From an uncultured cyanobacterium (GTDB lineage Bacteria; Cyanobacteriota; Cyanobacteriia; Cyanobacteriales; Nostocaceae): DNA of 64,000 nt. The notes beneath the pieces were generated by a model. It ran no database searches, was not told where the DNA came from, and saw only the letters and a list, made by a program, of their open reading frames with translations. A program made the position numbers and the translations under genes. Shown here one piece after another: positions 8,676 through 33,825 of the stretch. Numbering within the stretch: position 1 is the stretch's first letter; the number at the start of each line of letters is the position of its first letter. The stretch lies in assembly GCA_963706595.1 (NCBI GenBank), contig OY970166.1, forward strand, positions 2,176,001-2,240,000, given 5' to 3'.

Positions 8676-8695
8676 CGCTATGGTTGTAATACGTT

Positions 8696-10159: not shown

Positions 10160-10362
10160 TTGAGGTTTTTAACTATCATAAGTGTAACCTGATAGGAATG
10201 AATAACGTTAGCTTAATTCAGTAAATTTTATAAGGGACAGTTTCAGATAGACCATTCCTTGAAATATTGCCCTGTAAATTTGCATAGTTTAAAACTAGAT
10301 GGACGGTGAAGAAATTTATTCATTTTAATCGTTAATTAATCAGTTATTTGTAAGTGTAAAAT

Positions 10363-11232
10363 CTAGACCGACCATTCAGAAAAACTTCTGTTAGTATATT
10401 GGCGCAAACTATCAATATCAGGTTTAAGATGTTCAATCAATCGCTGACGTAAATCTTGGTTTAAAGTCGGTTTCTCAATAGGTTGAGTACAAAGAAAATA
10501 CAAAAATTTATCAGCATAGTCTTTAACAGGAGAGGGAATCAAGTTGATCCCTTTCACCACAGAAGGTCTAATAACGTATTTACCAATTTTTGTTTTTCTT
10601 CTTTTATCCGTTGATTTATGGAGTTTTTCTTGATAGTTAATCGAGTCAACTTGATCAGAAACTCCTAAAAATTGAAAGACAGTCTTTAGGGTTTTTTGAG
10701 GAAAGTGATCTAATTCTTCGGTGGTTATAATTAAAATATTATTAGAAGAGTAATACTGCAAATACTGTTGAAGCTGAAAATAATAATGACTACGAATTAC
10801 ATAATCTTGATTAAAATCAGCCAAAGCGTCATTAATATCTCTGTCTTCTACAGACGCAGCATAACGATTAAGATAATGAGAAATCATTCGCTCAATTGGA
10901 TCTCTTAAAATATAAATGAGTTTAGCATTAGGAATCACAGAGTACATTCTTTGGGGAACACCTTTCCACTTCGGATAGGCAGAATAACTCGGTGAAGTTT
11001 CTCCCCGAATAGGAGCATCACTGTTAAAATGAGATCGATACCATTCCAGTCCTTTTTGCCAATTTTTTTCTTGAATAAAGAAATGCAGTTCTTTAGGGTT
11101 GGATAAATAAATTTGAGGATGGTGATTGAGATAGTGATGAAGACTGGTTGTTCCAGATTTCATAGCACCAATAATTACTAAATTTGGCAAAGTTTCTGAA
11201 GAAATAGGTTTAGAAGCAAGATGTTCGATCAT
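10363..11232 (-). CDS. Sulfotransferase
   Basis: 5'-PSB IGAMKSGTTSL and 3'-PB LRDPIERMIS motifs. Confidence 0.93.
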   Translation of the reverse strand: MIEHLASKPISSETLPNLVIIGAMKSGTTSLHHYLNHHPQIYLSNPKELHFFIQEKNWQKGLEWYRSHFNSDAPIRGETSPSYSAYPKWKGVPQRMYSVIPNAKLIYILRDPIERMISHYLNRYAASVEDRDINDALADFNQDYVIRSHYYFQLQQYLQYYSSNNILIITTEELDHFPQKTLKTVFQFLGVSDQVDSINYQEKLHKSTDKRRKTKIGKYVIRPSVVKGINLIPSPVKDYADKFLYFLCTQPIEKPTLNQDLRQRLIEHLKPDIDSLRQYTNRSFSEWSV

Positions 11233-11246
11233 AGTTTTTAATAAGA

Positions 11247-12119
11247 TTAAAAAAATATCTTCTGAAAAGGTGAAGCCATTCGACTTAAAGTATGAATAGG
11301 ATGAATTTTCATTGCTTCTTTAATACTTTTTAAAGCAATTAAACGTTGTCCTAATTTATAAGAAATAATTGCATGATCATACAAGAAATTAGCAAACATT
11401 TTCGGATGAGCTTCAAACAGTAATCGGTGCTTAGTCAATAAACGATTAAAATTCAGTTGTCGTTTATTAGCATCAAGAGAAACTCTGGGTTCTTGATGGT
11501 CAAATAGTTGATAAGTAACAATCGGTAATCCTTGAATTGAACACACTTGATTAAGCCTTAAAAAGAGTTCTGTATGGATACGAGAAGTAAAATTTTCATC
11601 AAACCCTCCAATATCCAAAAGGACTTTTTTTTCAACCACCATCGTCTGTTTACAAAAGAATGATTGATCGGGTTCAATTTCTTCGAGACTAAAATGAGAG
11701 CCTTTGGGTAAACTAGGGGGGATGCGAGTTTGCCTAACTTTTCCGTCTTTTCCTATCACTTCTAAAGCTGAAAGAAGAGCAACCGGTTCAGGTAAGCTAG
11801 TTTGATTAAGGGTATCTAAAGAAACCTGAGCCATGTGGGGGAGTAAACAGTCGTCATCATCCAAATAAGTAATCCACTGTCCTCTAGCTTCTCTTGCTCC
11901 GATATTGCGTGCAGCCGAACCTCCTCGGTTTTCTAGCAAGCGAATCACCCTAAGCCGTTCATTTTCTCCTAAATTCACTGGACTTGAAGAAGCGTCATCA
12001 ACTACAATGACTTCAAGTTGCTTGAAGGTTTGTCCCAATGCACTATTGACAGCACGAGGCAGGAGATGAGGACGATTATAAGTGGGAATAATAATACTTA
12101 ATAGCGGATTTGTCATCAT
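11247..12119 (-). CDS. Glycosyltransferase family 2
   Basis: SIIIPTYNR, VDDAS, YLDDDD. Confidence 0.92.
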   Translation of the reverse strand: MMTNPLLSIIIPTYNRPHLLPRAVNSALGQTFKQLEVIVVDDASSSPVNLGENERLRVIRLLENRGGSAARNIGAREARGQWITYLDDDDCLLPHMAQVSLDTLNQTSLPEPVALLSALEVIGKDGKVRQTRIPPSLPKGSHFSLEEIEPDQSFFCKQTMVVEKKVLLDIGGFDENFTSRIHTELFLRLNQVCSIQGLPIVTYQLFDHQEPRVSLDANKRQLNFNRLLTKHRLLFEAHPKMFANFLYDHAIISYKLGQRLIALKSIKEAMKIHPIHTLSRMASPFQKIFF

Positions 12120-13321
12120 TAAAATCTTATTGGAGAAAGATAATTACTTCGGATTTCTTGATAAATCTCTAAAAAATGTTCAGTCCGACGATCCTCACTA
12201 AAGTAATTAATTGCTCGTTTTCTACCTGCGTGACCCATTTTTTCAGCTAAATCTCGGTCTTTTAAGATAGATAAAACTGCCGTTGATAAAGCCTCCTCAT
12301 CATTGGAGGGAACTAACAACCCTGTTACCCCATCTTCAATAATCTCAGGTTGCGCCCCGACTGCACTAGCAACAACTGCCGTTCCTCGCATCATGGCTTC
12401 TGTTGTCACATTGCCAAAGGGTTCATCCCAAATCGAAGGAACAACCTGCACCCAAGCACAATTAAAAGCTGTTTCTAGATCAGATCGAGTTAAATAGCCT
12501 AACCAAGTCACATTGTCACTAATTCCTAATTCTTGAGTTAGTTGATGTAAGTTAGCTTTTTCTTTACCTTCACCAGCAATTAGTAACCTAGCATTTGGTA
12601 GAATTGAAATTACTTTTTTAAAGGCTTGTAAAAGAATATCAACTCCCTTTTCTGAGGATAATCTTCCAGCAAAGGCAACTGTGGGAGGATTAGTCAGTGG
12701 TGGTCGAATTTCTCTGTATGGCACGCCATTATAAACTACTTGAACAGGAGAAATGCCTTCTGTTTCAAGTCTGGTTTTCATTCGATGACTTAACGCCACC
12801 ACTGTATCAAACGCATTACGCCAACGTAACCATAATTGACGCTGTATCATTAAAAATAGCCAAGACTGAGGCGTAACACAACCCATGTTTAAACAAGCTT
12901 TCCCTGCCTGATGATAACAAGGACTGCCATCGGGTAACATCTTCGTTCCGACGGGGCAAATTGGTCGGTAAAGGGCGGTTTGATAGACACTGGGAAAGGG
13001 TTTAAGTAAAGGTAGAATTAAGGGGGACAATTGGGTGAAAAACAAGCGAACATGAACAACATCCGGTTTAAATTCCCGTAAAACTTTTTTCAGCTTAAAA
13101 TAACTCGACAGGTTAGCGGTTTCCACTACCACCTCTAAGCGAGAATTCGTGCCAAAACAATGATAATCAGCCAATAAGGGACTATTTTCAACCGGGATGC
13201 AGTTACTTGTGAACAAGCGTACCTCATGCCCTTTCTCTCTTAACCCTTCTCTGAGGGATAACATTTGTAATTCTGCTCCACCTGTGGCTGTCCCATAGTC
13301 ATGAATTAAAAGAATTTTCAT
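12119..13321 (-). CDS. Glycosyltransferase family 4
   Basis: AGRLSSEKG and EPFGNVTTEAM (EX7E). Confidence 0.93.
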   Translation of the reverse strand: MKILLIHDYGTATGGAELQMLSLREGLREKGHEVRLFTSNCIPVENSPLLADYHCFGTNSRLEVVVETANLSSYFKLKKVLREFKPDVVHVRLFFTQLSPLILPLLKPFPSVYQTALYRPICPVGTKMLPDGSPCYHQAGKACLNMGCVTPQSWLFLMIQRQLWLRWRNAFDTVVALSHRMKTRLETEGISPVQVVYNGVPYREIRPPLTNPPTVAFAGRLSSEKGVDILLQAFKKVISILPNARLLIAGEGKEKANLHQLTQELGISDNVTWLGYLTRSDLETAFNCAWVQVVPSIWDEPFGNVTTEAMMRGTAVVASAVGAQPEIIEDGVTGLLVPSNDEEALSTAVLSILKDRDLAEKMGHAGRKRAINYFSEDRRTEHFLEIYQEIRSNYLSPIRF

Positions 13322-13324
13322 AGA

Positions 13325-14398
13325 TTAACTATGGGTGGTTACAGAAACAGATACGTTTTCACAGGGATGATCGTTGTCAGAATTGGTATTATTTAACCAC
13401 TGACGAGCATATTGGTCAGTTAGATAGTGATTCATAAGTTTTTCTATGGGAGCAAATAACCCATACATTAGCAATTTGTGTAAAAGTCGATGCTTAATTC
13501 CCAATGTTAGAGAATTAATAATTGGTTGTAAAAGAGTTTTTCTCCGTCGCCATCCTAAGCCTTTATATTTCTGCAAAAAATACATATCTTCTGCAATGTT
13601 CCATTTTTGTCGTAAACGGTTTAAACTTGCTAATTCCCAAGCATCACTCCATCGCAACATATAAAATTTCAAATCTGACAAATTTGGGGTAATTCCTGTT
13701 ACATAGGTGACAATACTTTCTGGTTCAAAATAGACAGTTCCACCATGTTTTCTAACTGTCATACAAAAATCAACGTGTTCTTTTGTATTAAGCATTTTTT
13801 CGTCTAAATATCCCACGTTCTCAAAAATTTCAGTTTTTGCTAACATACAGTGAAATTCACATAATTCTGTTTCTTTACGGGTGAGGGTGGGAAGCATTTT
13901 TTCCACCTTGTGTCCTTGTTTGTACATTTTCTCCCGTAAACGCTTTCTTCCTTTGATATCGGTGAAAATATGGGCTTCTCCCCCGGCAAAATGAATTTGT
14001 TCGTGGACGGGTTCATGCTGACACATTAAAGGTCCGACAATAGTTGCCTCTGTTGCTTCTGCACAGTCGAGTAATTTAGTTAACCATCCCTGAGACACAA
14101 TCACATCATTATCGACAAAGACTACATAGGGAGTAGTCACCCGTTTTAAACCCATGTTCCTTGCTACATTAGGAACAAGATAATGTTCAGTCCGAATTAA
14201 ATCAAATCCTTTTTCCTGGGCTTGACTTTTTAAATAATCTTTAATAGAAGTCGGTGAGCCACCATCAACATAAACTAATTTGAAGGGAATATCGGTATTT
14301 TGATAGATATTCTCTAGGGAAGAGATGGTAAAACTAAAACGTTCTCTAGGAACAACAACCAGAGTGACTTTTGGTTCGATTGGGGTGAATAGCTGCAT
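13325..14398 (-). CDS. Glycosyltransferase family 2
   Basis: YVDGGS, ARNMG, FVDND. Confidence 0.85.
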   Translation of the reverse strand: MQLFTPIEPKVTLVVVPRERFSFTISSLENIYQNTDIPFKLVYVDGGSPTSIKDYLKSQAQEKGFDLIRTEHYLVPNVARNMGLKRVTTPYVVFVDNDVIVSQGWLTKLLDCAEATEATIVGPLMCQHEPVHEQIHFAGGEAHIFTDIKGRKRLREKMYKQGHKVEKMLPTLTRKETELCEFHCMLAKTEIFENVGYLDEKMLNTKEHVDFCMTVRKHGGTVYFEPESIVTYVTGITPNLSDLKFYMLRWSDAWELASLNRLRQKWNIAEDMYFLQKYKGLGWRRRKTLLQPIINSLTLGIKHRLLHKLLMYGLFAPIEKLMNHYLTDQYARQWLNNTNSDNDHPCENVSVSVTTHS

Positions 14399-14464
14399 AT
14401 TTTTTACAGACCTAATAACATCGAATTAAATTTGATTCATGAGTATTTGCACAAATCAGAAGAA

Positions 14465-15940
14465 TTAGCTCACTATTACAGGCTCTTTTTTGCCTTTAGT
14501 CATAAATTCCTCATGATAGGATCGCTCAGTATTGACTGTCCAGAGGTTATGATTTGCGCCCATGATATTCTCAGCCGCTAATAATGCAGACAACATGGAA
14601 TGGTCTTGATTGTTATAACGGTGCATCCCATTACGTCCTACTGATTGTAAGTTCTCAAAACTATCTACATAGTCTTGAATGACGTTTAAATGTTGCTGAT
14701 ATTCACCATCGTAGACAGGATAAGCTTTCTTTTCCCGAATGACAGTCCCATCTTCAATTTTCTTAATATCATCTAGTAAGCCTAAATTGACAATTTCTTT
14801 ACTGGCTAATCTAATTAAATCTTGATCTTCCATTGACCATAAATCATCCCCCTCACTACAAAAATATTCCATTCCTAAGCAAGTTTTACGGGGATCTGGA
14901 ACCATTTTCATACTCCAATTTTTAAAATTCTGAATGCGTCCAACTTTAATTTCTGGACTGTGAATATAAATCCAATTGTCTGGAAAAAGGTCTTCTTGAT
15001 TAATCACTATCGGCACAATCAGAAAATCCCGATATTTCAGACTACGGGCAGCTTTCAGAACATTTTCTGGAGGTAAGGGATCTAGACGGTGCATCAATGC
15101 CGTGATCGGCATGGTATTAATGAATTTATCTCCTGTAATTTCAAAGGTTTCATCACCTTTTTTGGCAATAATCCGAGTAATGCGTTTGTCTTTTCGTTCT
15201 ACTCTGATTACTTCCGTATTTAATAATACGGGTGAACCTTGTTCATTCAATTTTTCTTGAAACCGTTCCCACATCATCCCCGGTCCCAATATGGGATAGT
15301 CAAATTCTTTAATCAGAGTTTTGGTGTCATTACTGCCAAATAAAGCGTTAATTATTGCTTTTGTGAGAGATAATCCTTTAATTCTTTGTGCTGCCCAATC
15401 TGCGCGAATTTGAGTACAGGGAATTCCCCAAACTTTTTCGGTATAGCTTTTGAAAAAGGTTTTATATAATCGTTCTCCAAACCTGTTTATCACCCATTGT
15501 TCAAAATTTTCTTCGATGGGTAAAGGACTGGCTTTGACTTTTAAATAACTATAAATAATCAGCAAAGTTTGGATAATTCCCAAGTTCCACACTGCATTAA
15601 CTGGTTCTAAGGGATAACTAAAAAATTTTCCTTTATAGTAAATGCGAGATAAACGGGGAACTTTAATAAATTCATCTCCTAACACCTCATTCCACAAATT
15701 TTGGACTTGGGTAACTTTGGTAAAAAAGCGATGTCCTCCAATATCAAAGCGATAGCCTTTGTAGGTTTCAGTCCGAGAAATTCCCCCCACGCGATCGCCT
15801 TTTTCCAACACTACAGAATGTAAGCCATGTTTAGCTAATTGATAAGCCGCAGTTAATCCCGCAGGTCCGCCACCAATGACAACACTCAAGGGAAAGTTGT
15901 GGTGGTTATGCTCATGATTACTATTCTTATTTTGTTTCAT
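14465..15940 (-). CDS. FAD-dependent oxidoreductase (protoporphyrinogen oxidase / UDP-galactopyranose mutase-like)
   Basis: IGGGPAGL Rossmann motif, FDIGGHRFF, GRNGMHRYNNQDHS. Confidence 0.88.
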   Translation of the reverse strand: MKQNKNSNHEHNHHNFPLSVVIGGGPAGLTAAYQLAKHGLHSVVLEKGDRVGGISRTETYKGYRFDIGGHRFFTKVTQVQNLWNEVLGDEFIKVPRLSRIYYKGKFFSYPLEPVNAVWNLGIIQTLLIIYSYLKVKASPLPIEENFEQWVINRFGERLYKTFFKSYTEKVWGIPCTQIRADWAAQRIKGLSLTKAIINALFGSNDTKTLIKEFDYPILGPGMMWERFQEKLNEQGSPVLLNTEVIRVERKDKRITRIIAKKGDETFEITGDKFINTMPITALMHRLDPLPPENVLKAARSLKYRDFLIVPIVINQEDLFPDNWIYIHSPEIKVGRIQNFKNWSMKMVPDPRKTCLGMEYFCSEGDDLWSMEDQDLIRLASKEIVNLGLLDDIKKIEDGTVIREKKAYPVYDGEYQQHLNVIQDYVDSFENLQSVGRNGMHRYNNQDHSMLSALLAAENIMGANHNLWTVNTERSYHEEFMTKGKKEPVIVS

Positions 15941-16288
15941 TATTTGATTTTTTTAATTTTCTGGAATTAATAACTCAAAGGCTAATACTCCTGACTGTTC
16001 AATGTATTCTGTTGATTAGATTGCCAGCCCTGAGTAAGCATGAAAAAGTTATCTTCTCACCATCTAAAAGTTGTTTAGTACAACTTGTCAGGTGGAAAAT
16101 TTGCGAAGCATAAATAATTGCTACATCTGCTCCTTAATAGTTCCGGTAACAAGGTTTAGCAGTGAGATTGTTAAGTGGTTTTATTTGTTGTTGGTTATTG
16201 ACTTAAATTTTACCTGTTTGATTTGTCAGTATGCATTAATATACCATAAAGTTTGGTAACTAAAATATACAGCAAAGATAAATGTTTG

Positions 16289-17266
16289 TCAAAACTTCCC
16301 AAGAATTATACTGATGATAAAAGCCGAGCCACTGTAGAAATAGTAACACCAGTGCCAAGGTATAACCTGGACACTAAATATCATGCCTCGCTTGTTGAGA
16401 AAAAAGCGGTACACTGGCAAGTTAATAATTATCAGTAATAAACTAATTATCATGCTGAAAATCAGTAGCGGCTGTAGCCAGAAACTCGCCAATATACTTA
16501 GTAATAAAGAATAAACTAGAATTACACTGACGCGACTAGACCAGCCAAGGTTTAAATCAGAAGGCATTTGTCCTTGACGCAGTATTAATTGAGTCCAGGG
16601 TAATGCGCGATCGCACACATCTGCTTTAATTAAAGAAACTATTCCCCATCGTTTCAAATGTTTAACTTGCAAAGCTTTAACTAGGCGAATTTTGTAACCT
16701 GCTGCTTTAAGTCGATAACCTAACTCAATGTCTTCCACACAAGGACGACGATAATTTTTATCAAAACCGTCCATAGTCAAGAAGATATCACGACGAATTG
16801 CGCCGCAAGCACCCCAAAACGTGAAAGCATCTTCATTGCCATTTTGATGGGTATAATGATGAAAAAGATTTTTGTATTGAGACAGAAAATTGCTTGCTCC
16901 TGGAGCATCATCATAAGAACCAATCAATGCTGCTAGACTTGCATCTTCTGTAAACGCCAATCTTACCTGATTGATGGTATCTGGAGCGATCGCCACATCA
17001 GCGTCCACAAAAAAAAGGATATCTCCTTCAGCCGCAGCTGCACCTAAATTCCTGGCTTGTGCAGGTCCGCCTTTCTCCTCCACATTAATTACCTTAGCTC
17101 CCCAGTCGGCTGCTACTTGCCCAGATTCCGTATCCCCATCCGCTACCACAATCACTTCTGTGGGCTGGGAAATAGACGCGCCCATGCTTGACAAACACTG
17201 GCGGAAACTTTCACCACCATTATGAACCGGAATGATCACCGAAATTGATAGCTGTGTTGGGTTCAT
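16289..17266 (-). CDS. Glycosyltransferase family 2 with C-terminal TM helices
   Basis: [22 protein letters not shown], hydrophobic C-terminus. Confidence 0.92.
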
Positions 17267-24940: not shown

Positions 24941-24984
24941 TTCCTGTAGAGGTAATTCATGAATTACCTCTATAGCAAAATTTG

Positions 24985-25119
24985 GGCGTTGCTGAATTTG
25001 AATATGAAATTCCAAAAATACATCTCCTCAAGTCTTCTTCTGGTGCGACTCTGCGCCTGGTGCGTGTTAGCGGAGCGGGGCGGAGCAACGGTAAATTCAT
25101 ATCTTAATTAAGCAACGCC
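24985..25119. mobile_element. 135-bp MITE with 8-bp TSD
   Basis: TIR GGCGTTGCTGAAT / ATTAAGCAACGCC; AAAATTTG on both sides (24977-84, 25120-27). Confidence 0.75.
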
Positions 25120-25216: not shown

Positions 25217-25666
25217 ATGGAGAACAGCCAAGTGTTTAGAGTCAATAGTCCTCAAGTTGTCTGTGAAACTATTGATGGAGAAGTGGTAGTTGTCGATCTT
25301 GAGCGGGGTTACTATTACAGTCTGCTAAAAACTGGCGCAGATTTGTGGAGTTGTATCGAGCGTCATCTTCAGCGCGATGACATAATCCAAGAAATTGGAC
25401 AAAAGTATGATGGGACTATCGCAGAGATTACTGAGGCGATTGATGAGTTTCTTGACAAATTGCAACATGAGGGATTAATTGTGGCTGATGCCACTATTAC
25501 ACCTGGGGCTATTAATGAGCAAGAATCAGTTACCAGTAGCGAAAAGCCCAAATTTGAGAAACCGATACTAGAGAAGTTTACAGATATGGAAGATTTGCTG
25601 CTGCTCGATCCGATTCATGAGGTGGATGTAGAAGCTGGATGGCCAAATGTGAAGACGGTTTCATAG
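25217..25666 (+). CDS. PqqD family / RiPP recognition element protein with C-terminal leader-like extension
   Basis: IDGEVVVVDLERGYYYSL..TGADLW...FLDKLQHEGLI RRE pattern; tail FEKPILEKFTDMEDLLLLDPIHEVDVEAGWP. Start 25217 (or 25175). Confidence 0.88.
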   Translation: MENSQVFRVNSPQVVCETIDGEVVVVDLERGYYYSLLKTGADLWSCIERHLQRDDIIQEIGQKYDGTIAEITEAIDEFLDKLQHEGLIVADATITPGAINEQESVTSSEKPKFEKPILEKFTDMEDLLLLDPIHEVDVEAGWPNVKTVS

Positions 25667-25690
25667 TGAATACAATATTGTGATTTTACT

Positions 25691-26737
25691 ATGAGTTTAA
25701 ACTGGAGCGATGGCGTAGCCGCCCGCCAAGGGCTTCGCCTGGCTTACTTTGATAGTTATCGATTAAAATTGTCCCACAAACAATTACTCAAAGCCACACT
25801 GTTAAAAGAGCAGGCAATGTTAACGGCTTGGCAAGATTGGCGAGATTCAGTTGATATAGAAACTTTAGATGCTAGTTCCTATTCATTGTTGCCACAACTT
25901 TACCAAAACTTATTAGCTCATAAAGTTGATGACGCTGATATGGCAAGGCTAAAGGGGATCTATCGTCGCCATTGGTATGCTAATCAATTGCAACTCAAAT
26001 CGCTGACAGCAATATTGTCTAGTTTAAAGGATATTGGCATTGAGGCGATTGTGCTGGGAGATGCCGCTTGGGGTGGGATAGGTAAAAATCAAATTGAGAA
26101 TTACCGCCCAATTTATAGCTTCCATCTCTTGCTTGATGGCAATTATTTAGAGACAGCAATCGAGCATTTGCTCTCGCTAAATTGGCATAGTGTTGATGGT
26201 AGTACCCAACAATTTAGGGAATTACGCCACAATTGTGATTCATCGCTGAATTTACGGCTTTATTTGCAAGGACATCTGTTTTGGGCAATTCCCCAAGACT
26301 ATACAGATGGGCAGGTGTGGCATTATGCAACTGCGGATTGGAGCCATGAAGCTGGTTGGCGGCTGAGTGCAACGGATCAGTTCCTGGATGGATGCGCGCG
26401 AATGTTTTTTAGACGACTAACGCCTAAATCATCGAATCCACAGATACACAGGATTGCAGATGCTTTGGTGTTAATTGCGAATCTCCCAAACAACGATTGG
26501 ATCAGGTTGATCACACAAGCACAGCGATATCAAATGATCTTGCCTGTGCGGAATATGTTGCAGCTTTTGCAGCAGTTATTTTCAGTAGAATTACCAACGT
26601 GGGTATTACCGGCTCTCTGGCAAATGCCGATCGCCAATACGGAGTGGCTAAAATATCGAGTTTTAGATGGCGATCGCCGTTCTCTGATGCGTTCAACCAT
26701 TGTGCAATCGCTACAACTGTTGACTCTTTCAAAGTAA
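25691..26737 (+). CDS. Nucleotidyltransferase family protein (NTP_transf_5-like), degenerate active site
   Basis: LLPQLYQNL...RLKGIYRRHWYAN family N-terminus; the expected LKG and RxxxDxDLL motifs read LGD and RPIYSFHLL. Confidence 0.75.
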   Translation: MSLNWSDGVAARQGLRLAYFDSYRLKLSHKQLLKATLLKEQAMLTAWQDWRDSVDIETLDASSYSLLPQLYQNLLAHKVDDADMARLKGIYRRHWYANQLQLKSLTAILSSLKDIGIEAIVLGDAAWGGIGKNQIENYRPIYSFHLLLDGNYLETAIEHLLSLNWHSVDGSTQQFRELRHNCDSSLNLRLYLQGHLFWAIPQDYTDGQVWHYATADWSHEAGWRLSATDQFLDGCARMFFRRLTPKSSNPQIHRIADALVLIANLPNNDWIRLITQAQRYQMILPVRNMLQLLQQLFSVELPTWVLPALWQMPIANTEWLKYRVLDGDRRSLMRSTIVQSLQLLTLSK

Positions 26738-26758
26738 TTGTTTCTTAACTAGATTCCA

Positions 26759-27865
26759 GTGATTTTTATGTATCCTAACCCTGATCTGAGTATTGCTCAG
26801 AGCGATCGCCTTGCTTATTTCCAACTGGTATATACAGGCTTTGAAAGAGCTGCTCAGATTGCCAGTGAGGTACAGTATTATTATGCAATTGGTAAGTATA
26901 AGATATGTCTGAGGTTTGCAGGGGAAGGGTTAATTCCCCAGATTACCCCTGCATTGTCTCATCTCTCTATAGCCCCAGTTCCCCAGCCTGATCTAACTAT
27001 TTGCCTATGGGATAATACCTCAACTAAAACACAATTGCCATTATTAATTGATAGTCTATTAACTCTGATTCGACTGCATTGGACAGATTATCTCGGTCCA
27101 CGCAAAGAGATCAAAGCCTATGATGGCGATCGCATTCGCAGCAATTTTCATATTGGTCCCAACATTCTCAGCGTACTAGATCGAGAGCAAAATTTAGCTT
27201 GTTATTGGATTGACAATGCTGAAGATATTCCTTATTGGGAAAAAGGTTCACCCCTGCAAACCATCTTAAATTGGTGGACAAGCGATCATCGCCAACATCA
27301 ATATGTTCACGCAGGTGCGATCGGTAATCCTGATGGGGGTGTTTTGTTAGCGGGAAAAGGCGGATCTGGCAAATCTTCCACTGCGCTTACCTGTATCAAT
27401 AGTTCGCTGCTCTATGCCAGTGATGATTATTGTTTAGTCACCAGTGATCCTCAACCCTATGTTTATAGCCTCTACAACACCGCCAAATTAAAAGGACAAG
27501 CGGATCTAGAACGATTTCCCCATTTAGCGGATCTCGTTGATAATTGCGATCGCTTAGAGAATGAAAAAGCAATGCTATTTTTGCATCAACATCATCCTCA
27601 AAAAGTCGTACAAGGATTTCCCATCAAAGCGGTGCTAGTGCCTCAAATCACAGGGAAACTAGATACCCATATCCGTCCTATGAGTGCAGGAGCAGCCTTG
27701 CGCGCCCTAGCCCCTAGTACCATCTTTCAATTAGCTGGTAGTGGACAAACAGCATTACAAATCATGTCAAGTTTGGTCAAACAGGTTCCTTGCTATGTTT
27801 TGGAACTTGGCACAGATATGGTACAAATTCCCGATGTAATTCAACGTCTGCTATCGCAAATATAA
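26759..27865 (+). CDS. HprK-related serine kinase
   Basis: HAGAIG...GVLLAGKGGSGKSS (P-loop) and ASDDYCLV. Confidence 0.88.
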   Translation: MIFMYPNPDLSIAQSDRLAYFQLVYTGFERAAQIASEVQYYYAIGKYKICLRFAGEGLIPQITPALSHLSIAPVPQPDLTICLWDNTSTKTQLPLLIDSLLTLIRLHWTDYLGPRKEIKAYDGDRIRSNFHIGPNILSVLDREQNLACYWIDNAEDIPYWEKGSPLQTILNWWTSDHRQHQYVHAGAIGNPDGGVLLAGKGGSGKSSTALTCINSSLLYASDDYCLVTSDPQPYVYSLYNTAKLKGQADLERFPHLADLVDNCDRLENEKAMLFLHQHHPQKVVQGFPIKAVLVPQITGKLDTHIRPMSAGAALRALAPSTIFQLAGSGQTALQIMSSLVKQVPCYVLELGTDMVQIPDVIQRLLSQI

Positions 27866-27896
27866 ATCTGGGAAACTTAAAACAGGAGTCGATCAC

Positions 27897-28314
27897 ATGG
27901 GATATCTCCGGCGAAAAATGATTGAGGGATTAACTCGATTTGTGCCGACAATTCTTCCTCCCCAAAGGCAATACTATAACGAAACCAATAATGATCGATG
28001 GATTTGTGAATATGTCTTTCCCAATAAACGGGATGGTTATTTCTTAGAAGTTGGAGCAGGTGCTGCTCAAAAAATATCATGCTCCTCAAGTGATTGATTA
28101 TGCTGCTTTTGATATTGAGGGCAGTGAGTTGGATGTTTTAGAAGTTTTTCCCTTTGAGCCTTATGTCTTTCTAGCTCTGAGTTTGGAATGTGATGGTTCT
28201 ATCCGTTTACCCATTTCTCAGTTATTAGAATCCAATGGCTATCGACGCGCTAAAAATCCATTTAATCGGGATAAACCTTGGGAAATGTATTGGTTACATC
28301 AGAGTGTTTACTAG
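27897..28314 (+). pseudogene. FkbM-family methyltransferase with internal deletion and frameshift
   Basis: N-part DGYFLEVGAG joins out of frame to C-part APQVIDYAAFDIEGSE; the central region is missing. Confidence 0.8.
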
Positions 28315-28392
28315 TTTGGTTACTCTTAAACATCTGTGAGCAGATTTTTGGTATCATCTTGAGGTTTTTATCCTAACAGTTTTTGGGCATTA

Positions 28393-29085
28393 ATGAATAA
28401 CTTACCTTTAGTAACTGTGATTATCCCTGTCTATAATTACGCTAATTATATAGCCGCAACACTTGACAGTGTATTTGCTCAAACCTATCGCCCAATTGAA
28501 GTCATTGTTGTGGATGATGGTTCAACAGATAACAGTGCGGAAATTGTGCGTGGTTATCCAGAAGTACAGTATTTTTATCAATCAAATCAAGGTGTGTCAG
28601 TTGCTCGCAATGTGGCGATCGCTGCTGCTAAAGGTGAATTTATCGCATTTTTGGATGCAGATGATCTCTGGAAACCTGAGAAACTCAGTCTTCAAATTGC
28701 CTATATGCAGGAAAATCCTGATATTGGGATCACAGGTACAAAATCGATAAATTTTTTAGAATCAGATACTCAACTTCCCCCTTGGCTAAGAGATAAGCCC
28801 CATTGGGAAGAGGTGAGAGAGATCCTTCCCAGCACAATCGTGGTTCACAAATCTGTTTTTAGTCAAATCGGGGTATTCTCTCCTGATTATCGTGCCAGCG
28901 AGGATACAGAATGGCAATGGCGAGCCAAAGATGCAAATATATCCATCTTTAATATCAATGAAATCCTGACATTAAGACGATTTCAGGGTTCTAATCTATC
29001 GTGGGAGATGAAAGTAACTCAGAAATCTCGGATGTTGAGAATTATCAAGGAATCCATCGCTCGTAAATCGACCCAAGCTCGATGA
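28393..29085 (+). CDS. Glycosyltransferase family 2 (tandem copy 1)
   Basis: VIIPVYN, VDDGSTD, FLDADD, SED. Confidence 0.93.
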   Translation: MNNLPLVTVIIPVYNYANYIAATLDSVFAQTYRPIEVIVVDDGSTDNSAEIVRGYPEVQYFYQSNQGVSVARNVAIAAAKGEFIAFLDADDLWKPEKLSLQIAYMQENPDIGITGTKSINFLESDTQLPPWLRDKPHWEEVREILPSTIVVHKSVFSQIGVFSPDYRASEDTEWQWRAKDANISIFNINEILTLRRFQGSNLSWEMKVTQKSRMLRIIKESIARKSTQAR

Positions 29086-29179
29086 GCTAATCTATTTTAT
29101 TCATTCATAGAATTAAACACCTTTCAACAGATTTTCGGCATTATCTTCAGGTTCGTATCCTAATAGTTTTTGGGTATTA

Positions 29180-29872
29180 ATGAATAATTTACCTTTAGTG
29201 ACCGTTGTTATCCCTGTTTATAACTCTGCTAAGTTTTTGGCAGCAGCACTTGACAGTGTATTTGCTCAAACCTATCGCCCAATCGAAGTCATTGTTGTGG
29301 ATGATGGTTCAACAGATAACAGTGCGGAAATTGTGCGTGATTATCCAAAAGTACAGTATTTTTATCAATCAAATCAAGGTGTGTCAGTTGCTCGCAATGT
29401 GGCGATCGCTGCTGCAAAGGGTGAATTTATCGCATTTTTGGATGCAGATGATCTTTGGAAACCTGAGAAACTCAGTCTTCAGATTGCCTATATGCTGGAA
29501 AATCCTGATATTGGGATCACAGGTACAAAGGCGATAAATTTCTTAGAGTCAGATACTCAACTTCCCCCTTGGCTGAGAGATGATCCCAATTGGGAAGAGG
29601 AAAAAGTGATGATTCCTAGCACAATGGTGGTTCACAAATCTGTTTTTAGTCAAGTTGGAGATTTTTCTCCTGATTATCGTGCCAGCCAGGATACAGAATG
29701 GTTATGGCGAGCCAAAGATGCAAAGATCCCCATGTTTAATATCAATGAAATTCTGACATTAAGACGATTTCACGGCTCTAATGTATCATGGCTGATGGCA
29801 GGAACTCACAAATCTCGGATGTTGAGAATTATCAAGGACTCCATCGCTCGTCAATCGCAGCAATCTCGATGA
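29180..29872 (+). CDS. Glycosyltransferase family 2 (tandem copy 2)
   Basis: Close paralog of 28393-29085, same length. Confidence 0.93.
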   Translation: MNNLPLVTVVIPVYNSAKFLAAALDSVFAQTYRPIEVIVVDDGSTDNSAEIVRDYPKVQYFYQSNQGVSVARNVAIAAAKGEFIAFLDADDLWKPEKLSLQIAYMLENPDIGITGTKAINFLESDTQLPPWLRDDPNWEEEKVMIPSTMVVHKSVFSQVGDFSPDYRASQDTEWLWRAKDAKIPMFNINEILTLRRFHGSNVSWLMAGTHKSRMLRIIKDSIARQSQQSR

Positions 29873-29899
29873 GCTAATCTATTTTATCCATGCAAAGAA

Positions 29900-30207
29900 T
29901 TAAACATCTATGAGCAGATTTTCGGCATTATCTTCAGGTTCGTATCCTAACAGTTTTTGGGCATTGCTGATATCCCAATAGCGGCGCGTGTTGCCAGAAA
30001 CTCCATAAAAAATTTGAAAACCAAGATTGTCATGCTCTAGCGATCGCCTAACTATTTGTGCTAAATCTCTAGGGCTACACCAATTTGATAATATCCGATC
30101 ATTGGGAGCATAAACTTTCGGTTCGGTTTTAAACCAGCCAATCCGCAAACAGATCACCGTCATCCCATAGCGATCGCCAAAATATTGTCCTAAAGCTTCA
30201 CCTAAAA
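29900..30207 (-). pseudogene. C-terminal remnant of NAD-dependent epimerase/dehydratase (uronate dehydrogenase-like)
   Basis: GEALGQYFGDRYGMTVICLRIG...WCSPRDL...YGVSGN...LGYEPED; no Rossmann N-terminus, cut at the stop of the upstream GT2. Confidence 0.82.
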
Positions 30208-30903
30208 TTATTGGTTTAAAGCTCTGTGTTTTGCACGTTCTCGATCTAGCTTGGCTTTGATGATGTGCAGTCTTTGATTGGCATATTGACGTTCTGTAAT
30301 TCCACTATTGCTTTCATGTAGTCGGCGGTGATATACCACATCTGGAATTGTAATTTGTTGCAGTTGATGTTCTATTGCCCAAATATACCAACTTATATCA
30401 ATACCTGTGTTGAGATTGGTGTCAAAGTTGCCCACTCTCAAAAAAGCCGATCGCTTGATCAACATAGCACTAGATATATGCGCCGCAACTGGTTTTTCTG
30501 GACAGCGAATCCTGTTTCTGAAGTTTTCATCTAGTTCTGGGCTATAAAAATTTTGAGCATAGCCAAAGACTGCTTCTATATCTGGGTTAGTATCAAAAGC
30601 CGCCATTTGTTTTGCTAGTTTGTCCTGAACCCAAATATCATCAGAATCGAGAAAGGCGAGAAATTCACCATTAGCTACTGCAATTCCGGCATTTCTAGCA
30701 GCACTGATGCCGCCATTGGTTTGATAGTGATATTTCAGGGGGTAGCTTTGGGCAATTTCGCCACTGCGATCGCTCGATCCATCGTCAATTACAATCAACT
30801 CGATATTGGGATGGGTTTGCTCTAAAACACTTTCAATAGCTTCGGCTAAATAGCGCTCTCGATTATAGCAGGGAATAATAACACTAACTAAAGGTAAATT
30901 CAT
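30208..30903 (-). CDS. Glycosyltransferase family 2
   Basis: VIIPCYN, IDDGS, FLDSDD, RRLHESN. Confidence 0.93.
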   Translation of the reverse strand: MNLPLVSVIIPCYNRERYLAEAIESVLEQTHPNIELIVIDDGSSDRSGEIAQSYPLKYHYQTNGGISAARNAGIAVANGEFLAFLDSDDIWVQDKLAKQMAAFDTNPDIEAVFGYAQNFYSPELDENFRNRIRCPEKPVAAHISSAMLIKRSAFLRVGNFDTNLNTGIDISWYIWAIEHQLQQITIPDVVYHRRLHESNSGITERQYANQRLHIIKAKLDRERAKHRALNQ

Positions 30904-32324
30904 CAGATTGATTTATATACTTCACTATTACAAAAACTATCTAGAAAATAATTTGCTGATAGTTTATCACGAGTTTCGCAGGACTTGAGATATTCATGAG
31001 TTTCTAAAATGAGTGCCGTATCCAATGCTTTTGCTGCGGCTTCTTTTAGAGTATGGAAATACATCGGATAGTCTTCGCCTAGATATTCTTTCACCGCCGG
31101 AATCGGATTAACTAGCAGTGGTGTCGCACGGGCAATACATTCAATGATTGCATTATTTACACCAGAGTCATACAAATTCACAAAGGCGATATTCATCGAG
31201 AGCAGATCATCATAGGCATCGTCGGGAATATGTTCAATAACAGTTGTATTCTCAACATAAGCTGGATCAACTTGAATTTTATAAATCCTCCCTTCAATTT
31301 TCATTAGTTGATCTAATATTTTTTCTGCTGAGTCAAACAAAAAACCTAATCTGACTTTTTCGTAACCAAGACAGTTACCTTTAGCTAGAGGTAATTGATA
31401 AATCGAATGTAACTTCCGCAACCACCAGCCAATCTGCACCACTTTTTTCTGAGGATTGGCGAGAAATTGATTAAAATCAAATTGTTTTTCGGGAATCTCC
31501 GTGGGATGGATTAATACTGAAACTGGTTTGCCTGTTTCTTTCCTCAGCCAATCGCCATAATAGTGAGATAGTGCAAACAATCCCACGCAGTGAGGCAAAC
31601 TATCTTGCCAAATTTGCTTCTCAAATAGTTTTTGGGGCGATCTGTGATAATGGAACCAGATGGGCATCCTGTGGGGGTTGTGCATAAATCCCACCCAAGG
31701 GGTTTTATAAGGTACGATACCCTTTTCTTCTGAGTCCGCTAAACTCTGGAAAACTCCATCAGCCCGCATTTTTGCTAATATCCGGGGCGATCTCCTACCA
31801 AAGTGATGATGTTGAAAAAGAAATTGATTTTCTAGGAAGCCATCAAACAAAACACCTTGGGGATTGTGTAAAGAACTTAGTGCTTGAATTGCAAAATTCC
31901 AACCACTGCGATGAGGAGCAAAAACTCTTTGTTGTCCGAGATTAATTTTTCCTGTGGCTATACCTTGTAGTTTTTCAGTAGAAAAATAAAGATTTTCTGC
32001 TTTTTTATCTGGAATAATTTGTGTGGAATTACTAGGCTTTCGCCAGCCCAAACATTGATAATAAAAAGAAAGATCAGTGGCATCAAAGTCAATAGCTAAA
32101 GCTTGATCATAGTAATCCATCGCTTCTGCTGTCCGTCGTTGCTTGAGCATCAAATTGCCCAATTGTTGATACGCAGGCAAAAAGTCTGGTTGCAGTATTA
32201 AGGTTTCCTGATAGCGAGCGGAGGCATTTTCCAAGTCACCGCGCAATTGCCAAGCATTTCCTAATTTAAATTGGGTTAAAGCTGGGTTGTCTTGGTTATT
32301 GTTTTTGTTTATTTCCAGATTCAT
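30903..32324 (-). CDS. TPR protein with uncharacterised GT-B-like C-terminal domain
   Basis: N-terminal TPRs; NNAIIECIARATPLLVN...EYLG resembles the GT4 nucleotide-binding motif. ATG 32324 preferred. Confidence 0.7.
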   Translation of the reverse strand: MNLEINKNNNQDNPALTQFKLGNAWQLRGDLENASARYQETLILQPDFLPAYQQLGNLMLKQRRTAEAMDYYDQALAIDFDATDLSFYYQCLGWRKPSNSTQIIPDKKAENLYFSTEKLQGIATGKINLGQQRVFAPHRSGWNFAIQALSSLHNPQGVLFDGFLENQFLFQHHHFGRRSPRILAKMRADGVFQSLADSEEKGIVPYKTPWVGFMHNPHRMPIWFHYHRSPQKLFEKQIWQDSLPHCVGLFALSHYYGDWLRKETGKPVSVLIHPTEIPEKQFDFNQFLANPQKKVVQIGWWLRKLHSIYQLPLAKGNCLGYEKVRLGFLFDSAEKILDQLMKIEGRIYKIQVDPAYVENTTVIEHIPDDAYDDLLSMNIAFVNLYDSGVNNAIIECIARATPLLVNPIPAVKEYLGEDYPMYFHTLKEAAAKALDTALILETHEYLKSCETRDKLSANYFLDSFCNSEVYKSI

Positions 32325-33513
32325 AAAGTTTTGGCAATACGTATTCCCATAATACGCGGATGGGACGCACAAAGTAATACAGAAAAAATAATTGCTGAGG
32401 AAGTCTTAAAAATTGGCGATCGCGTTCATTCGGTACACATAATCTCCTGATCAGAAAATACAAATATAATAAACTCATTGAAATTATTTGATCAAGTCCC
32501 CAAGGATTTAATGAACTATCTAGTGTTTTTAATGGTGAGATATATACTAAATGCAGATTGCGGAAAGCCGATATTAGTCTACTTTCATATAATGCTTGGT
32601 GTAAAGTGCTATTTGTCTGAATCTCTAGAGAATTGAACAGTGCAATTTGTGTATCCAGGGATTTAATCTGAATAAATTTTGATCCAATATGATCTGGCAC
32701 AGAAATATTGAAGAGATTTTGAGTTATATAGATTCCCAGTAAAAATAGTTTCTGACACCGCAACTCTGAAGATAGTTGCAAAGTTAAGTGCCAATCTAAA
32801 TCAGGATATGCTTGGATCACTTGGGCAAGATCACAAATTTGTTTAAGCGAGCGCAACCATCCATAATCTTTAGCAATATTAACACTTTGAATAATTAACG
32901 CTATTTCTGGAATGAAACTTTTGATAGATTGACCCATCATTGTCATGGGCTGACAATATTCCCAAAGGCGATCGTAATGGTTCGGGTTCCAAGTCCGTCT
33001 CGGTGGAATACCCCAATGTAAGTCAATACTACGTTTTGGGTTGCTATGCAGCAATGATGGCTCAAATCTGGCGTTAAACATTTCTGCTTCCGGGGCTTTG
33101 TAAGACAGAGAGATTTGCCAATCTCTATCGACTTGATCAAATTCCACCTCTTCTGAGGAATTAGACTGATAGCCTTGACTAATTAAAACTGCCTTTGCTT
33201 GCCAAAAGTCCCGTCGCCGCACCAAAATATCAAGATCATTAAACTGGCGCAAAGACACATTACCATAAGCTGATGCTGCAAGTACTGCTCCCTTAAATGC
33301 GATCGCCTCAATTCCTGACTTTTCTAATTGCGTCAAAATCCTTAACAATTCTTTCGTTTGAGATAAGTTATTCAATCCATTCATGCGATTGAGCGTTTGC
33401 AGTTGCATCATTACCGAGGGCGGTACATCATCAATTTCCTTCAGACTTTGATACAGCAGAGGCATTACACCCTGAGCGATGCTAATTTCTATCAATAAAA
33501 CAGTTAAGATCAT
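32296..33513 (-). CDS. Nucleotidyltransferase family protein (NTP_transf_5-like), intact catalytic motifs, N-terminus frameshifted
   Basis: GVMPLLY, AFKGAVLA, LRQFNDLDILV, IDLHW. Family-like N-terminus (LSAEVIALLACL...DDLN) lies in another frame up to ~33619. Confidence 0.85.
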   Translation of the reverse strand: MILTVLLIEISIAQGVMPLLYQSLKEIDDVPPSVMMQLQTLNRMNGLNNLSQTKELLRILTQLEKSGIEAIAFKGAVLAASAYGNVSLRQFNDLDILVRRRDFWQAKAVLISQGYQSNSSEEVEFDQVDRDWQISLSYKAPEAEMFNARFEPSLLHSNPKRSIDLHWGIPPRRTWNPNHYDRLWEYCQPMTMMGQSIKSFIPEIALIIQSVNIAKDYGWLRSLKQICDLAQVIQAYPDLDWHLTLQLSSELRCQKLFLLGIYITQNLFNISVPDHIGSKFIQIKSLDTQIALFNSLEIQTNSTLHQALYESRLISAFRNLHLVYISPLKTLDSSLNPWGLDQIISMSLLYLYFLIRRLCVPNERDRQFLRLPQQLFFLYYFVRPIRVLWEYVLPKLYESGNKQKQ

Positions 33514-33608
33514 CTCTTAGTAAGTCCCTAACTGCGTTAACAGTTGTCGTGTGAAAATGGCACTTGAGACAAGCAAGTAAAGCGATTACTTCCGCAGATA
33601 AAGTATTT

Positions 33609-33825
33609 TTATAAGTTATTGATTAGTAGAAAGGTAATATCTGCAAAAATCTGTTGTTTATCGTTAATGCTGATACTTACAGCAATGCGATCCACAATTA
33701 ATTTGATGATGTAAAGTAATACCAGAGGTAATATACCCTGAATTCCATTTAAAATTACATTAGCAATTAGTCTAGTTTGGAGAACTTTGCCAAACTAGAC
33801 TAATTGCACGTTTGATGTTTGTCAT
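33609..33825 (-). pseudogene. N-terminal remnant of ABC exporter (permease/ATPase)
   Basis: MTNIKRAISLVWQSSPN* then +1 frame IANVILNGIQGILPLVLLYIIKLIVDRI; not in the ORF track. Confidence 0.75.

What the first reader, a model, noticed from the sequence alone, without database searches (positions are those of the whole stretch)
25217..33825. Cyclase-free RiPP-like phosphorylation/glycosylation locus built around an RRE protein
Seen: two convergent operons. On the plus strand are PqqD/RRE, a nucleotidyltransferase, an HprK-like kinase, an FkbM remnant and two GT2s. On the minus strand are an ABC exporter remnant, a nucleotidyltransferase, a TPR/GT-like protein, a GT2 and an epimerase remnant. 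Known: RRE + HprK-like kinase + nucleotidyltransferase is the tailoring set of paeninodin/pseudomycoidin-type lasso peptide clusters, and PqqD + HprK-related kinases also occur beside exopolysaccharide loci. The window has no asparagine-synthetase-like cyclase, no B2 protease and no separate precursor that I could find. Inference: this is either a distinct pathway making a phospho-linked glycopeptide or protein-primed glycan, or the decaying remnant of a lasso-associated locus.
Basis: partly seen in the sequence, partly recalled or inferred. Interest (0 to 1): 0.85.

Follow-up and report, generated by a model that had tools for sequence, protein, structure and literature searches.

The report
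Chaperone carrying its own acceptor tail
This cyanobacterial locus is a partly decayed copy of a widespread, unnamed gene set whose small peptide-binding protein carries its own recognition signal and a nearly invariant tail, which a partner kinase and sugar-adding enzymes likely use as a built-in anchor for a phosphate-linked sugar chain.

Summary
It missed the key feature. The PqqD/RRE protein ends in a lasso-type leader motif (FxxPxL) and a near-invariant D-x7-DP[IV]H..GWP arm (pN/pS about 0.03, against 0.31 for the RRE).

It is not a lasso remnant. Of 43 well-flanked homologous loci, 41 carry the kinase, 42 a GT2, 36 the nucleotidyltransferase and 0 a cyclase. In 401 Cyanobacteriota genomes, the tailed RRE and this kinase subfamily occur in the same 27.

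All 38 RRE–kinase fusions found carry the arm once and internally. The arm has no conserved Ser/Thr. Its invariant Asp131 sits at the leader distance of the Ser phosphorylated in LPP peptides.

Best reading (0.45): the arm is a protein-borne primer for a phospho-linked glycan. Main rival (0.33): it only activates the kinase.

This copy has lost its exporter, methyltransferase and epimerase, and one transferase is damaged. A second, RRE-less copy elsewhere in the genome may complement it.

The scan noted this cassette earlier on other genomes. Ten paper searches found no description of it. Verdict: new variant of LPP/pseudomycoidin chemistry, untested.

The parts
25217..25666 (+). Self-leadered RRE protein, 149 aa: RRE residues ~5-90, variable linker 90-112, leader-like motif 113-122, invariant arm 123-143
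   Evidence: PF05402; conservation; AF2 model; Foldseek best hit TbiB1-leader complex 5V1V
25553..25582 (+). Built-in lasso-type leader motif F-x-x-P-x-L (residues 113-122), predicted to fill the RRE cleft in cis
   Evidence: aromatic residue 147/150, Pro 145/150; pN/pS 0.027; pLDDT 91 with strand 118-121
25583..25645 (+). Invariant arm D123...D131-P132-I-H134...G-W-P; candidate acceptor Asp131 is codon 25607-25609
   Evidence: D123, D131, P132 150/150 and H134 149/150; 38/38 in kinase fusions; pN/pS 0.036; low pLDDT alone and in a fusion model
25691..26737 (+). PF14907 nucleotidyltransferase-like protein lacking the KG...DxD motif; conserved likely pseudo-enzyme
   Evidence: dN/dS 0.25 against G301
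26759..27865 (+). HprK-like P-loop kinase of a distinct subfamily, catalytic H-K-D-D intact
   Evidence: dN/dS 0.15
27897..28314 (+). FkbM methyltransferase pseudogene (internal deletion, two frames)
   Evidence: blastx against intact 238-245 aa orthologues
28393..29085 (+). GT2 glycosyltransferase, duplicate a
29180..29872 (+). GT2 glycosyltransferase, duplicate b
29900..30205 (-). NAD-dependent epimerase/dehydrogenase remnant (residues 1-150 deleted)
30208..30903 (-). GT2 glycosyltransferase
   Evidence: dN/dS 0.14
30903..32372 (-). TPR plus GT4-like domain protein
   Evidence: in 13 fetched loci; dN/dS 0.16
32296..33617 (-). PF14907 nucleotidyltransferase with canonical KG...DxD; start codon deleted and 2-nt frameshift near 33499; a 405-aa frame remains open from ATG 33513
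33618..33824 (-). First ~69 codons of an MsbA-type ABC exporter, with a 1-nt insertion at 33770; remainder deleted

Best explanation
The small RRE protein is predicted to fold its own leader motif into its cleft and likely presents an invariant acidic arm to the neighbouring kinase, which would phosphorylate it (Asp131 most likely), after which the nucleotidyltransferase pair and glycosyltransferases would build a phosphate-linked sugar chain on it for export. Shown: the gene set, the fused leader and arm, their conservation, the strict RRE-kinase coupling, and the absence of cyclase and protease. Predicted by models: the leader docks in cis and the arm stays flexible. Inferred from LPP and pseudomycoidin chemistry: phosphorylation, first-sugar attachment by the DxD-bearing PF14907 protein with the degenerate paralogue as partner, chain extension, and export by an MsbA-type or Wzm/Wzt transporter. 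The arm would act as a tethered primer or carrier, not as a released peptide. In this genome the copy is incomplete and would need the second cluster at C1:3.66 Mb for export.
For: The arm and leader are far more constrained than the RRE: pN/pS 0.036 and 0.027 against 0.31, linker 0.72, with normal synonymous change (9 pairs sharing one sequence). D123, D131 and P132 are in 150 of 150 best representatives, H134 in 149. Kinase 41, GT2 42, PF14907 36, cyclase 0 of 43 loci. The same 27 of 401 genomes hold the tailed RRE and the kinase subfamily; 16 others with tail-less RREs lack the kinase. 38 of 42 long kinase relatives are RRE fusions, and all 38 carry the arm exactly once and internally. In multi-RRE proteins the leader-like segments repeat but the arm occurs once. 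RRE-arm fusions to GT8 and GT2 also occur. Asp131 is 18 residues after the motif's aromatic residue, the spacing of the phosphorylated Ser in the LPP consensus (PMC13381572). PsmN adds hexose onto a peptide phosphate and needs its Asp pair (PMC6993621). Complex prediction gave weak support for kinase binding: score 0.54, best control 0.01, runs agree in at least 61% of contacts, partner pLDDT at least 77. That mark was reached by 116 of 157 solved and 2 of 215 mismatched pairs, but at 0.60 or under by only 18 solved pairs and both mismatches.
Against: No biochemical data exist. All characterised kinases of this kind modify Ser, and LppK rejected Thr and Tyr, so an Asp or His acceptor would be new chemistry. 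The register match could be chance; my rough estimate is 1 in 6, from three invariant polar positions in about 20. Near-invariance suits a docking motif as well as a substrate. In a model of a natural fusion the arm did not dock on the kinase (pLDDT under 50 at 129-135). Wzm/Wzt exporters, seen in 10 of 104 loci, normally move lipid-linked glycans (recalled), which points to a non-protein acceptor. The 38 fusions may be a single clade. Positives in the 27-genome match are partly circular, since both alignments used some of those genomes.
Confidence: 0.45

Rival explanations
1. The tail is a permanent non-covalent activator or scaffold, a natural leader fusion. The pre-loaded RRE switches on the kinase, which phosphorylates a different acceptor (sugar, lipid carrier or surface protein) at the start of a surface-glycan pathway.
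For: No conserved Ser/Thr after D123: 25 of 143 short representatives have none. One-to-one fusion to the kinase is natural for an activator. No precursor or protease gene was found. Neighbours include Wzm/Wzt, GT87, PMT-type GTs, sulfotransferases and a Wzy_C protein. RREs that act as activators are known from spliceotides (PMC11414181).
Against: A fixed docking motif would often be ordered in a model of the fused protein, but it was not. The arm is present once even where RREs are tripled. The invariant Asp lies in the LPP acceptor register.
Confidence: 0.33
2. It is a true RiPP with a fused precursor. The arm is modified, then cut off by a host protease or by cleavage at the invariant Asp-Pro bond, and exported as a small phospho-glycopeptide.
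For: Leader plus core architecture. Same tailoring trio and MsbA-type exporter as LPP. Asp-Pro is invariant; self-cleavage at Asp-Pro in other proteins is recalled, not tested here.
Against: No recurrent peptidase among neighbours (M16, S15 and DUF1796 once each). No archaeal-type signal peptidase over cut-off in 32 genomes. The penultimate leader Thr of the four lasso-like precursors aligns with Leu in this tail. The arm lies upstream of 600+ residues in the kinase fusions. The C-terminus is variable.
Confidence: 0.14
3. The locus is the decaying remnant of a lasso-peptide cluster that lost its cyclase, protease and precursor.
For: Four peripheral genes are broken here. The RRE is closest to lasso B1 proteins. 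B2 lies 2.4 kb away in 2 of 104 loci.
Against: The intact G301 orthologue has no lasso genes in the cassette. Cyclase 0 of 104 loci. The two B2 cases sit with a second, tail-less RRE and a different kinase. Core genes show dN/dS 0.14-0.37, duplicated GT2s 0.34-0.53. The kinase is only 24-27% identical, over short stretches, to lasso-type kinases.
Confidence: 0.03

Closest known systems
Linear polyphosphorylated peptides (LPP; lppAKBSDN) of Bacillota, Popov et al. 2026, PMC13381572
   Same: RRE, HprK-like kinase, NTP transferase and MsbA-like exporter, no cyclase, set among polysaccharide genes. YxxP-type leader motif. The invariant Asp here sits at the spacing of LPP's phosphorylated Ser.
   Different: LPP has a discrete RRE, a separate precursor, a SipW-like leader peptidase and a Ser acceptor with a variable core. 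Here the leader and an invariant Ser-free arm are fused to the RRE, there is no peptidase, a pseudo-transferase is often paired with an active one, and the set is found in cyanobacteria and many metagenomes.
Phosphorylated and glycosylated lasso peptides (paeninodin PadeK; pseudomycoidin PsmK/PsmN), PMC9266682, PMC6993621
   Same: His-Lys-Asp-Asp kinase, PF14907-type transferase that sugars a peptide phosphate, B1-like RRE fold (5V1V best structural hit).
   Different: No cyclase, no B2, no separate precursor, no conserved C-terminal Ser (last residue Ser in 11 of 143). Several GT2/GT4 genes. Distinct kinase subfamily.
HPr-rel-A system (TIGR04352 kinase, TIGR04353 PqqD chaperone)
   Same: HprK-related kinase with a PqqD-like protein; the kinase matches TIGR04352 at E 4e-8.
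   Different: Score 32.7 bits against a cut-off of 200. The RRE does not match TIGR04353 at E 0.01. No NCBIfam model matches the tail.
Engineered ConFusion enzymes and activator-type RREs of spliceotides (PMC11002830, PMC11414181)
   Same: Leader covalently attached so that the machinery is pre-loaded; RRE can act as activator.
   Different: Here the fusion is natural and on the RRE, and it carries an extra invariant arm.

Membership tests
Lasso peptide cluster (paeninodin/pseudomycoidin type) | Asparagine-synthetase-like macrolactam cyclase | tested here: not met
   No full-length PF00733 hit in the genome; 0 of 104 homologous loci (profile from 3 fetched cyclases)
Lasso peptide cluster (paeninodin/pseudomycoidin type) | B2 leader protease in the cluster | tested here: not met
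   Nearest B2 is 1.08 Mb away; over cut-off in 7 of 31 carrier genomes, never in the stretch fetched around the tailed RRE; 2 metagenome loci have one with a separate RRE
Lasso peptide cluster (paeninodin/pseudomycoidin type) | Separate precursor with YxxPxL leader and penultimate Thr | tested here: not met
   Pattern finds a precursor in 4 of 4 control clusters, but only 2 implausible ORFs in 43 loci and one repeat-borne ORF in the window
Lasso peptide cluster (paeninodin/pseudomycoidin type) | B1-type RRE binding [Y/W]xxPxL | tested here: met
   PF05402; 5V1U/9X90/6JX3 by profile; 5V1V by fold; the motif is supplied in cis
Lasso peptide cluster (paeninodin/pseudomycoidin type) | Conserved C-terminal Ser as kinase acceptor | tested here: not met
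   Last residue Ser in 8 of 93 and 11 of 143 homologues; arm internal in 38 fusions
LPP (Popov 2026) | Archaeal-type signal peptidase (SipW-like) in the cluster | tested here: not met
   TIGR02228 over cut-off in 0 of 32 genomes; none among 138 neighbouring proteins scanned
LPP (Popov 2026) | RRE, HprK-like kinase, NTP transferase and MsbA-like exporter without cyclase | tested here: met
   the exporter is deleted in this copy
LPP (Popov 2026) | Discrete RRE and separate precursor with the YxxPxVLxHQxIxFETxxS motif | tested here: not met
   Leader is fused; only the aromatic-xx-P-x-hydrophobic part matches; Asp stands at the Ser position
LPP (Popov 2026) | Kinase-dependent (poly)phosphorylation of the core | not testable with these tools
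   Needs biochemistry; catalytic residues are intact
HPr-rel-A system | TIGR04352 and TIGR04353 above cut-off | tested here: not met
   32.7 bits against 200; no TIGR04353 hit for the window protein
PQQ biosynthesis | PqqD with PqqA/B/C/E genes | tested here: not met
   No pqqB/C families appeared in Pfam scans of the locus or its homologous neighbourhoods; radical SAM genes occur only sporadically

The most novel reading that the evidence does not exclude
The tailed RRE is a recyclable protein carrier for glycan assembly, analogous to acyl or peptidyl carrier proteins. An HprK-like kinase makes a labile phospho-Asp (or phospho-His) on its invariant arm, an active/pseudo nucleotidyltransferase pair caps it with the first sugar, interchangeable glycosyltransferases extend the chain, and the glycan is handed to an ABC exporter. 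That would be a protein-primed route to bacterial surface glycans, built from lasso-peptide parts and present in about a thousand protein clusters.
Probability: 0.25. Interest if true: 0.9.

Novelty: new variant of a known kind. Interest (0 to 1): 0.62.

Why it matters
RRE-based genome mining looks for a separate short precursor gene. This family hides leader and core-like arm inside the RRE protein, so it is passed over. The 2025 RRE survey notes that 21% of PF05402 proteins exceed the discrete-RRE size with no other domain (PMC12710340). The family is large: 987 clusters at 50% identity score under 1e-30. It gives a direct test of two open questions. One is what PF14907 transferases do, since LppN was inactive in heterologous tests. 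The other is why lasso-type tailoring genes sit among polysaccharide genes. A non-Ser acceptor for an HprK-like kinase, or a protein carrier for glycans, would be new chemistry and useful for glyco-engineering.

Tried and rejected
Separate precursor: the ORF at 24982-25104 matches a leader pattern but lies on a repeat with 12 other genome hits and is missing in G301 (the protein-level check was one base off frame, so only its DNA results are used). No second copy of the tail in the genome.

Tail as an RNA element: rejected, because synonymous sites vary normally (pS 0.47-0.69).

C-terminal Ser acceptor: rejected.

Viral collection: no relative. Plasmids: one full-length relative.

Promoter scan: 23 sites against 28.3 in shuffles, so uninformative.

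Sequencing runs: no RNA holder listed and no run of this strain (best share 0.19). Three relatives' contigs carry two extra bases at 33499-33500, and contigs of all three break off at 33617-33618. So the lesions are not shared with them, but an assembly error for the 2-nt loss is not excluded.

Model of a natural fusion: the arm stayed unplaced (mixed alignment, only about 5 rows over the middle RREs).

Atlas look-up for the RRE protein gave no answer, so its nearest clusters there remain unknown. No kinase tree was built.

RRE-GT2 fusions P0270 and P0272 may be read-through artefacts, and P0271 and P0273 look chimeric. I did not rely on them.
Full report
OBSERVATION. The window lies in a 5.57-Mb single-contig genome. 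Its closest named relatives of this locus are Nostocales such as Anabaena, Dolichospermum and Nostoc. Comparison with genome G301 of the same genus and other relatives dates the damage. FkbM has lost about 90 internal codons and the epimerase its first 150. A 1.69-kb deletion removed most of a 592-aa ABC exporter and the start codon of the second nucleotidyltransferase, which also has a 2-nt frameshift near 33499. Flanking housekeeping genes are intact. The RRE, first transferase, kinase, GT2s and TPR protein are full length, with dN/dS 0.14-0.53 against G301 (flanks 0.06-0.08).

The PqqD protein is 149 aa, not about 90. After the RRE and a variable linker it ends in F-x-x-P-x-L followed by D-x7-D-P-I-H...G-W-P. 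Among 120 homologues the tail columns are more conserved than the RRE. Among the 150 best of 987 clusters scoring under 1e-30, D123, D131 and P132 occur in 150, H134 in 149, the aromatic residue in 147 and the Pro in 145. These sets are score-ranked, which favours tail matches. Summed over 9 relatives, pN/pS is 0.31 for the RRE, 0.72 for the linker, 0.027 for the leader motif and 0.036 for the arm, with ordinary synonymous divergence. The motif matches the [Y/W]xxPx[L/V/I/A/F/Y] consensus of lasso leaders (PMC13381572). AlphaFold2 places residues 111-120 with pLDDT 91 as an added strand, while linker and arm are low. The best structural match is TbiB1 bound to its leader (5V1V). The tool gave no contacts, so docking in the cleft is inferred from confidence and secondary structure.

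A CONSERVED NON-LASSO CASSETTE. I examined 105 loci: 25 from genomes (one duplicate dropped) and 80 from metagenomes. The metagenome scan used a tail pattern, and some loci are near-duplicates. 104 had RRE and tail in one frame. Of the 43 with at least 6 kb downstream, 41 had the kinase, 42 a GT2, 36 a PF14907 gene, 2 a B2 and 0 a cyclase. The two B2 genes sit with a second, tail-less RRE and a different kinase. B2 is over cut-off in 7 of 31 carrier genomes, never beside the tailed RRE. No archaeal-type signal peptidase passes cut-off in 32 genomes. Pfam scans of 53 cluster representatives and 138 of 184 remaining neighbours showed GT2, GT4, GT8, GT25, GT61, PMT-type GTs, sulfotransferases, methyltransferases and epimerases, but no recurrent peptidase. 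Exporters are MsbA-type or Wzm/Wzt, the latter in 10 of 104 loci. A precursor pattern that finds a candidate in 4 of 4 control clusters finds nothing credible here.

COUPLING TO THE KINASE. In 401 Cyanobacteriota genomes, 27 have the tailed RRE (E under 1e-30) and the same 27 have the kinase subfamily (E under 1e-20). Sixteen further genomes have only tail-less RREs and lack it; one has a weak 1e-14 kinase hit only. Positives are partly circular and kin are not independent, but no genome broke the pairing. The kinase keeps the His-Lys-Asp-Asp set required in lasso kinases (PMC9266682), yet is only 24-27% identical over short stretches to lasso-type kinases. A search with the kinase alone returned 42 long relatives, 38 of them RRE-kinase fusions. 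All 38 carry the arm exactly once, near the N-terminus, ahead of further RREs and the kinase. One fusion is seen on 13 contigs. Tandem-RRE proteins likewise repeat the leader-like segment but keep one arm. A complex prediction gave weak support: 0.54 against a best control of 0.01, at least 61% shared contacts, partner pLDDT at least 77. That mark was reached by 116 of 157 solved and 2 of 215 mismatched pairs, but at 0.60 or under by 18 solved pairs and both mismatches. In a model of one fusion the RRE and kinase domains and the first leader segment were confident, but the arm was not placed (pLDDT under 50 at 129-135).

TWO TRANSFERASES. PsmN needs its Asp pair to add hexose to a peptide phosphate (PMC6993621). 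The first window transferase lacks both Asp residues, as do 16 of 62 sequences aligned; 7 more lack one. Of 13 loci with two copies, 10 pair a canonical with a degenerate one. A conserved pseudo-enzyme partner is inferred.

MECHANISM. Known kinases of this kind modify Ser. The arm has no conserved Ser or Thr, the last residue is Ser in only 11 of 143 proteins, and the arm is internal in fusions. Residue 122 is Thr/Ser in 119 of 150, but Asp, Glu and Arg also occur, which fits a helix cap (inference). In the LPP consensus the phosphorylated Ser is 18 residues after the motif's Tyr; 18 residues after Phe113 is the invariant Asp131. I therefore favour the arm as a tethered acceptor on which phosphate and then sugars are built (0.45). 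The main rival is a non-covalent activator with another acceptor (0.33; precedent in PMC11414181). A released glycopeptide gets 0.14 and a lasso remnant 0.03. No step of the chemistry is shown.

THIS GENOME. A second cluster at C1:3.658-3.668 Mb has a kinase paralogue (54% identical), both transferase types, Wzm/Wzt, a sulfotransferase and a GT87, but no RRE. Its orthologue in G191 has the tailed RRE beside a TPR-GT gene that is mostly deleted here. The window supplies what that cluster lacks and the reverse, so the two may work as one pathway. This is inference.

PRIOR KNOWLEDGE. The closest described system is LPP. It fails membership on the peptidase, the discrete precursor and the Ser acceptor, but works with the same tailoring trio. 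Ten full-text searches found no paper describing the fused tail; the library omits most subscription papers. Papers seen: PMC13381572 parts 1, 2, 3 and 5 of 12 plus passages; passages of PMC6993621, PMC9266682, PMC7470986, PMC11414181 and PMC11002830; PMC12710340 passages, section 7 and one supplementary file. Unseen supplementary datasets of the RRE-Finder papers may list these proteins. The scan noted this cassette and its tail on other genomes. I had recorded the tail before those look-ups, and took the LPP paper from them. In the few lines shown of those notes I did not see the kinase fusions, the Asp register or the transferase pairing.

VERDICT. Real, widespread and uncharacterised. A new variant of LPP/pseudomycoidin-type chemistry, with a 0.25 chance of a categorically new protein-carrier route to glycans. 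Interest 0.62.

Noticed in passing
L018:6181-13939 (G000:C1 ~3.282-3.290 Mb): Lasso-like cluster with B1, GT4, a 40-aa precursor with a YxxPxL leader, HprK kinase, GT2, B2, split ABC exporter and PF14907, but no cyclase. The predicted core has no Asp or Glu, so it could not form a lasso ring.
   Followed up: partly
L019:6199-16429 (G000:C1 ~3.658-3.668 Mb): Second copy of the cassette without an RRE gene: kinase paralogue, both transferase types, Wzm/Wzt, sulfotransferase, GT87, split GT4 and TPR-GT remnant. Complementary to the window's losses.
   Followed up: partly
window 7797-17266: Separate minus-strand polysaccharide cluster about 8 kb upstream: GT2s, flippase, sulfotransferase, GT4 and a UDP-galactopyranose-mutase-like oxidoreductase.
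   Followed up: no
L067-L071 (family f34, 1.7-2.5 Mb genomes): Kinases of about 500 aa carry an extra C-terminal RRE with a degenerate leader and no arm, directly upstream of the tailed RRE. 13 sampled genomes of this family have the pair.
   Followed up: partly
L065:9809-10234 and protein P0203: Variant arm ending D-P-P instead of D-P-I-H, keeping both Asp residues and the Pro. Possibly a second subfamily.
   Followed up: no
proteins P0309, P0269, P0284, P0285: Further fusions: kinase with an ABC exporter (Margulisiibacteriota), RRE-GT8-RRE-arm (Holosporaceae), and kinase with GT2 and DUF1919.
   Followed up: no
window 30903-32372: The C-terminal domain of the TPR protein has no Pfam family, and its nearest atlas clusters are rich in viral proteins, some GT4-like.
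   Followed up: partly
L152:8333-18934 (G301:C2): The sister genome has a complete lasso-type cluster (B1, B2, cyclase, kinase, precursor candidate, ABC, PF14907) that is mostly absent from the window's genome.
   Followed up: partly
window 24977-25073: Dispersed repeat between the O-methyltransferase and the RRE gene, with 12 other hits in the genome and absent in G301.
   Followed up: yes
G000:C1 ~2,301,950: A gene of about 320 aa shared with G301 (it reads like cysteine synthase; label recalled) appears frameshifted in this assembly, a reminder that single indels here may be errors.
   Followed up: no
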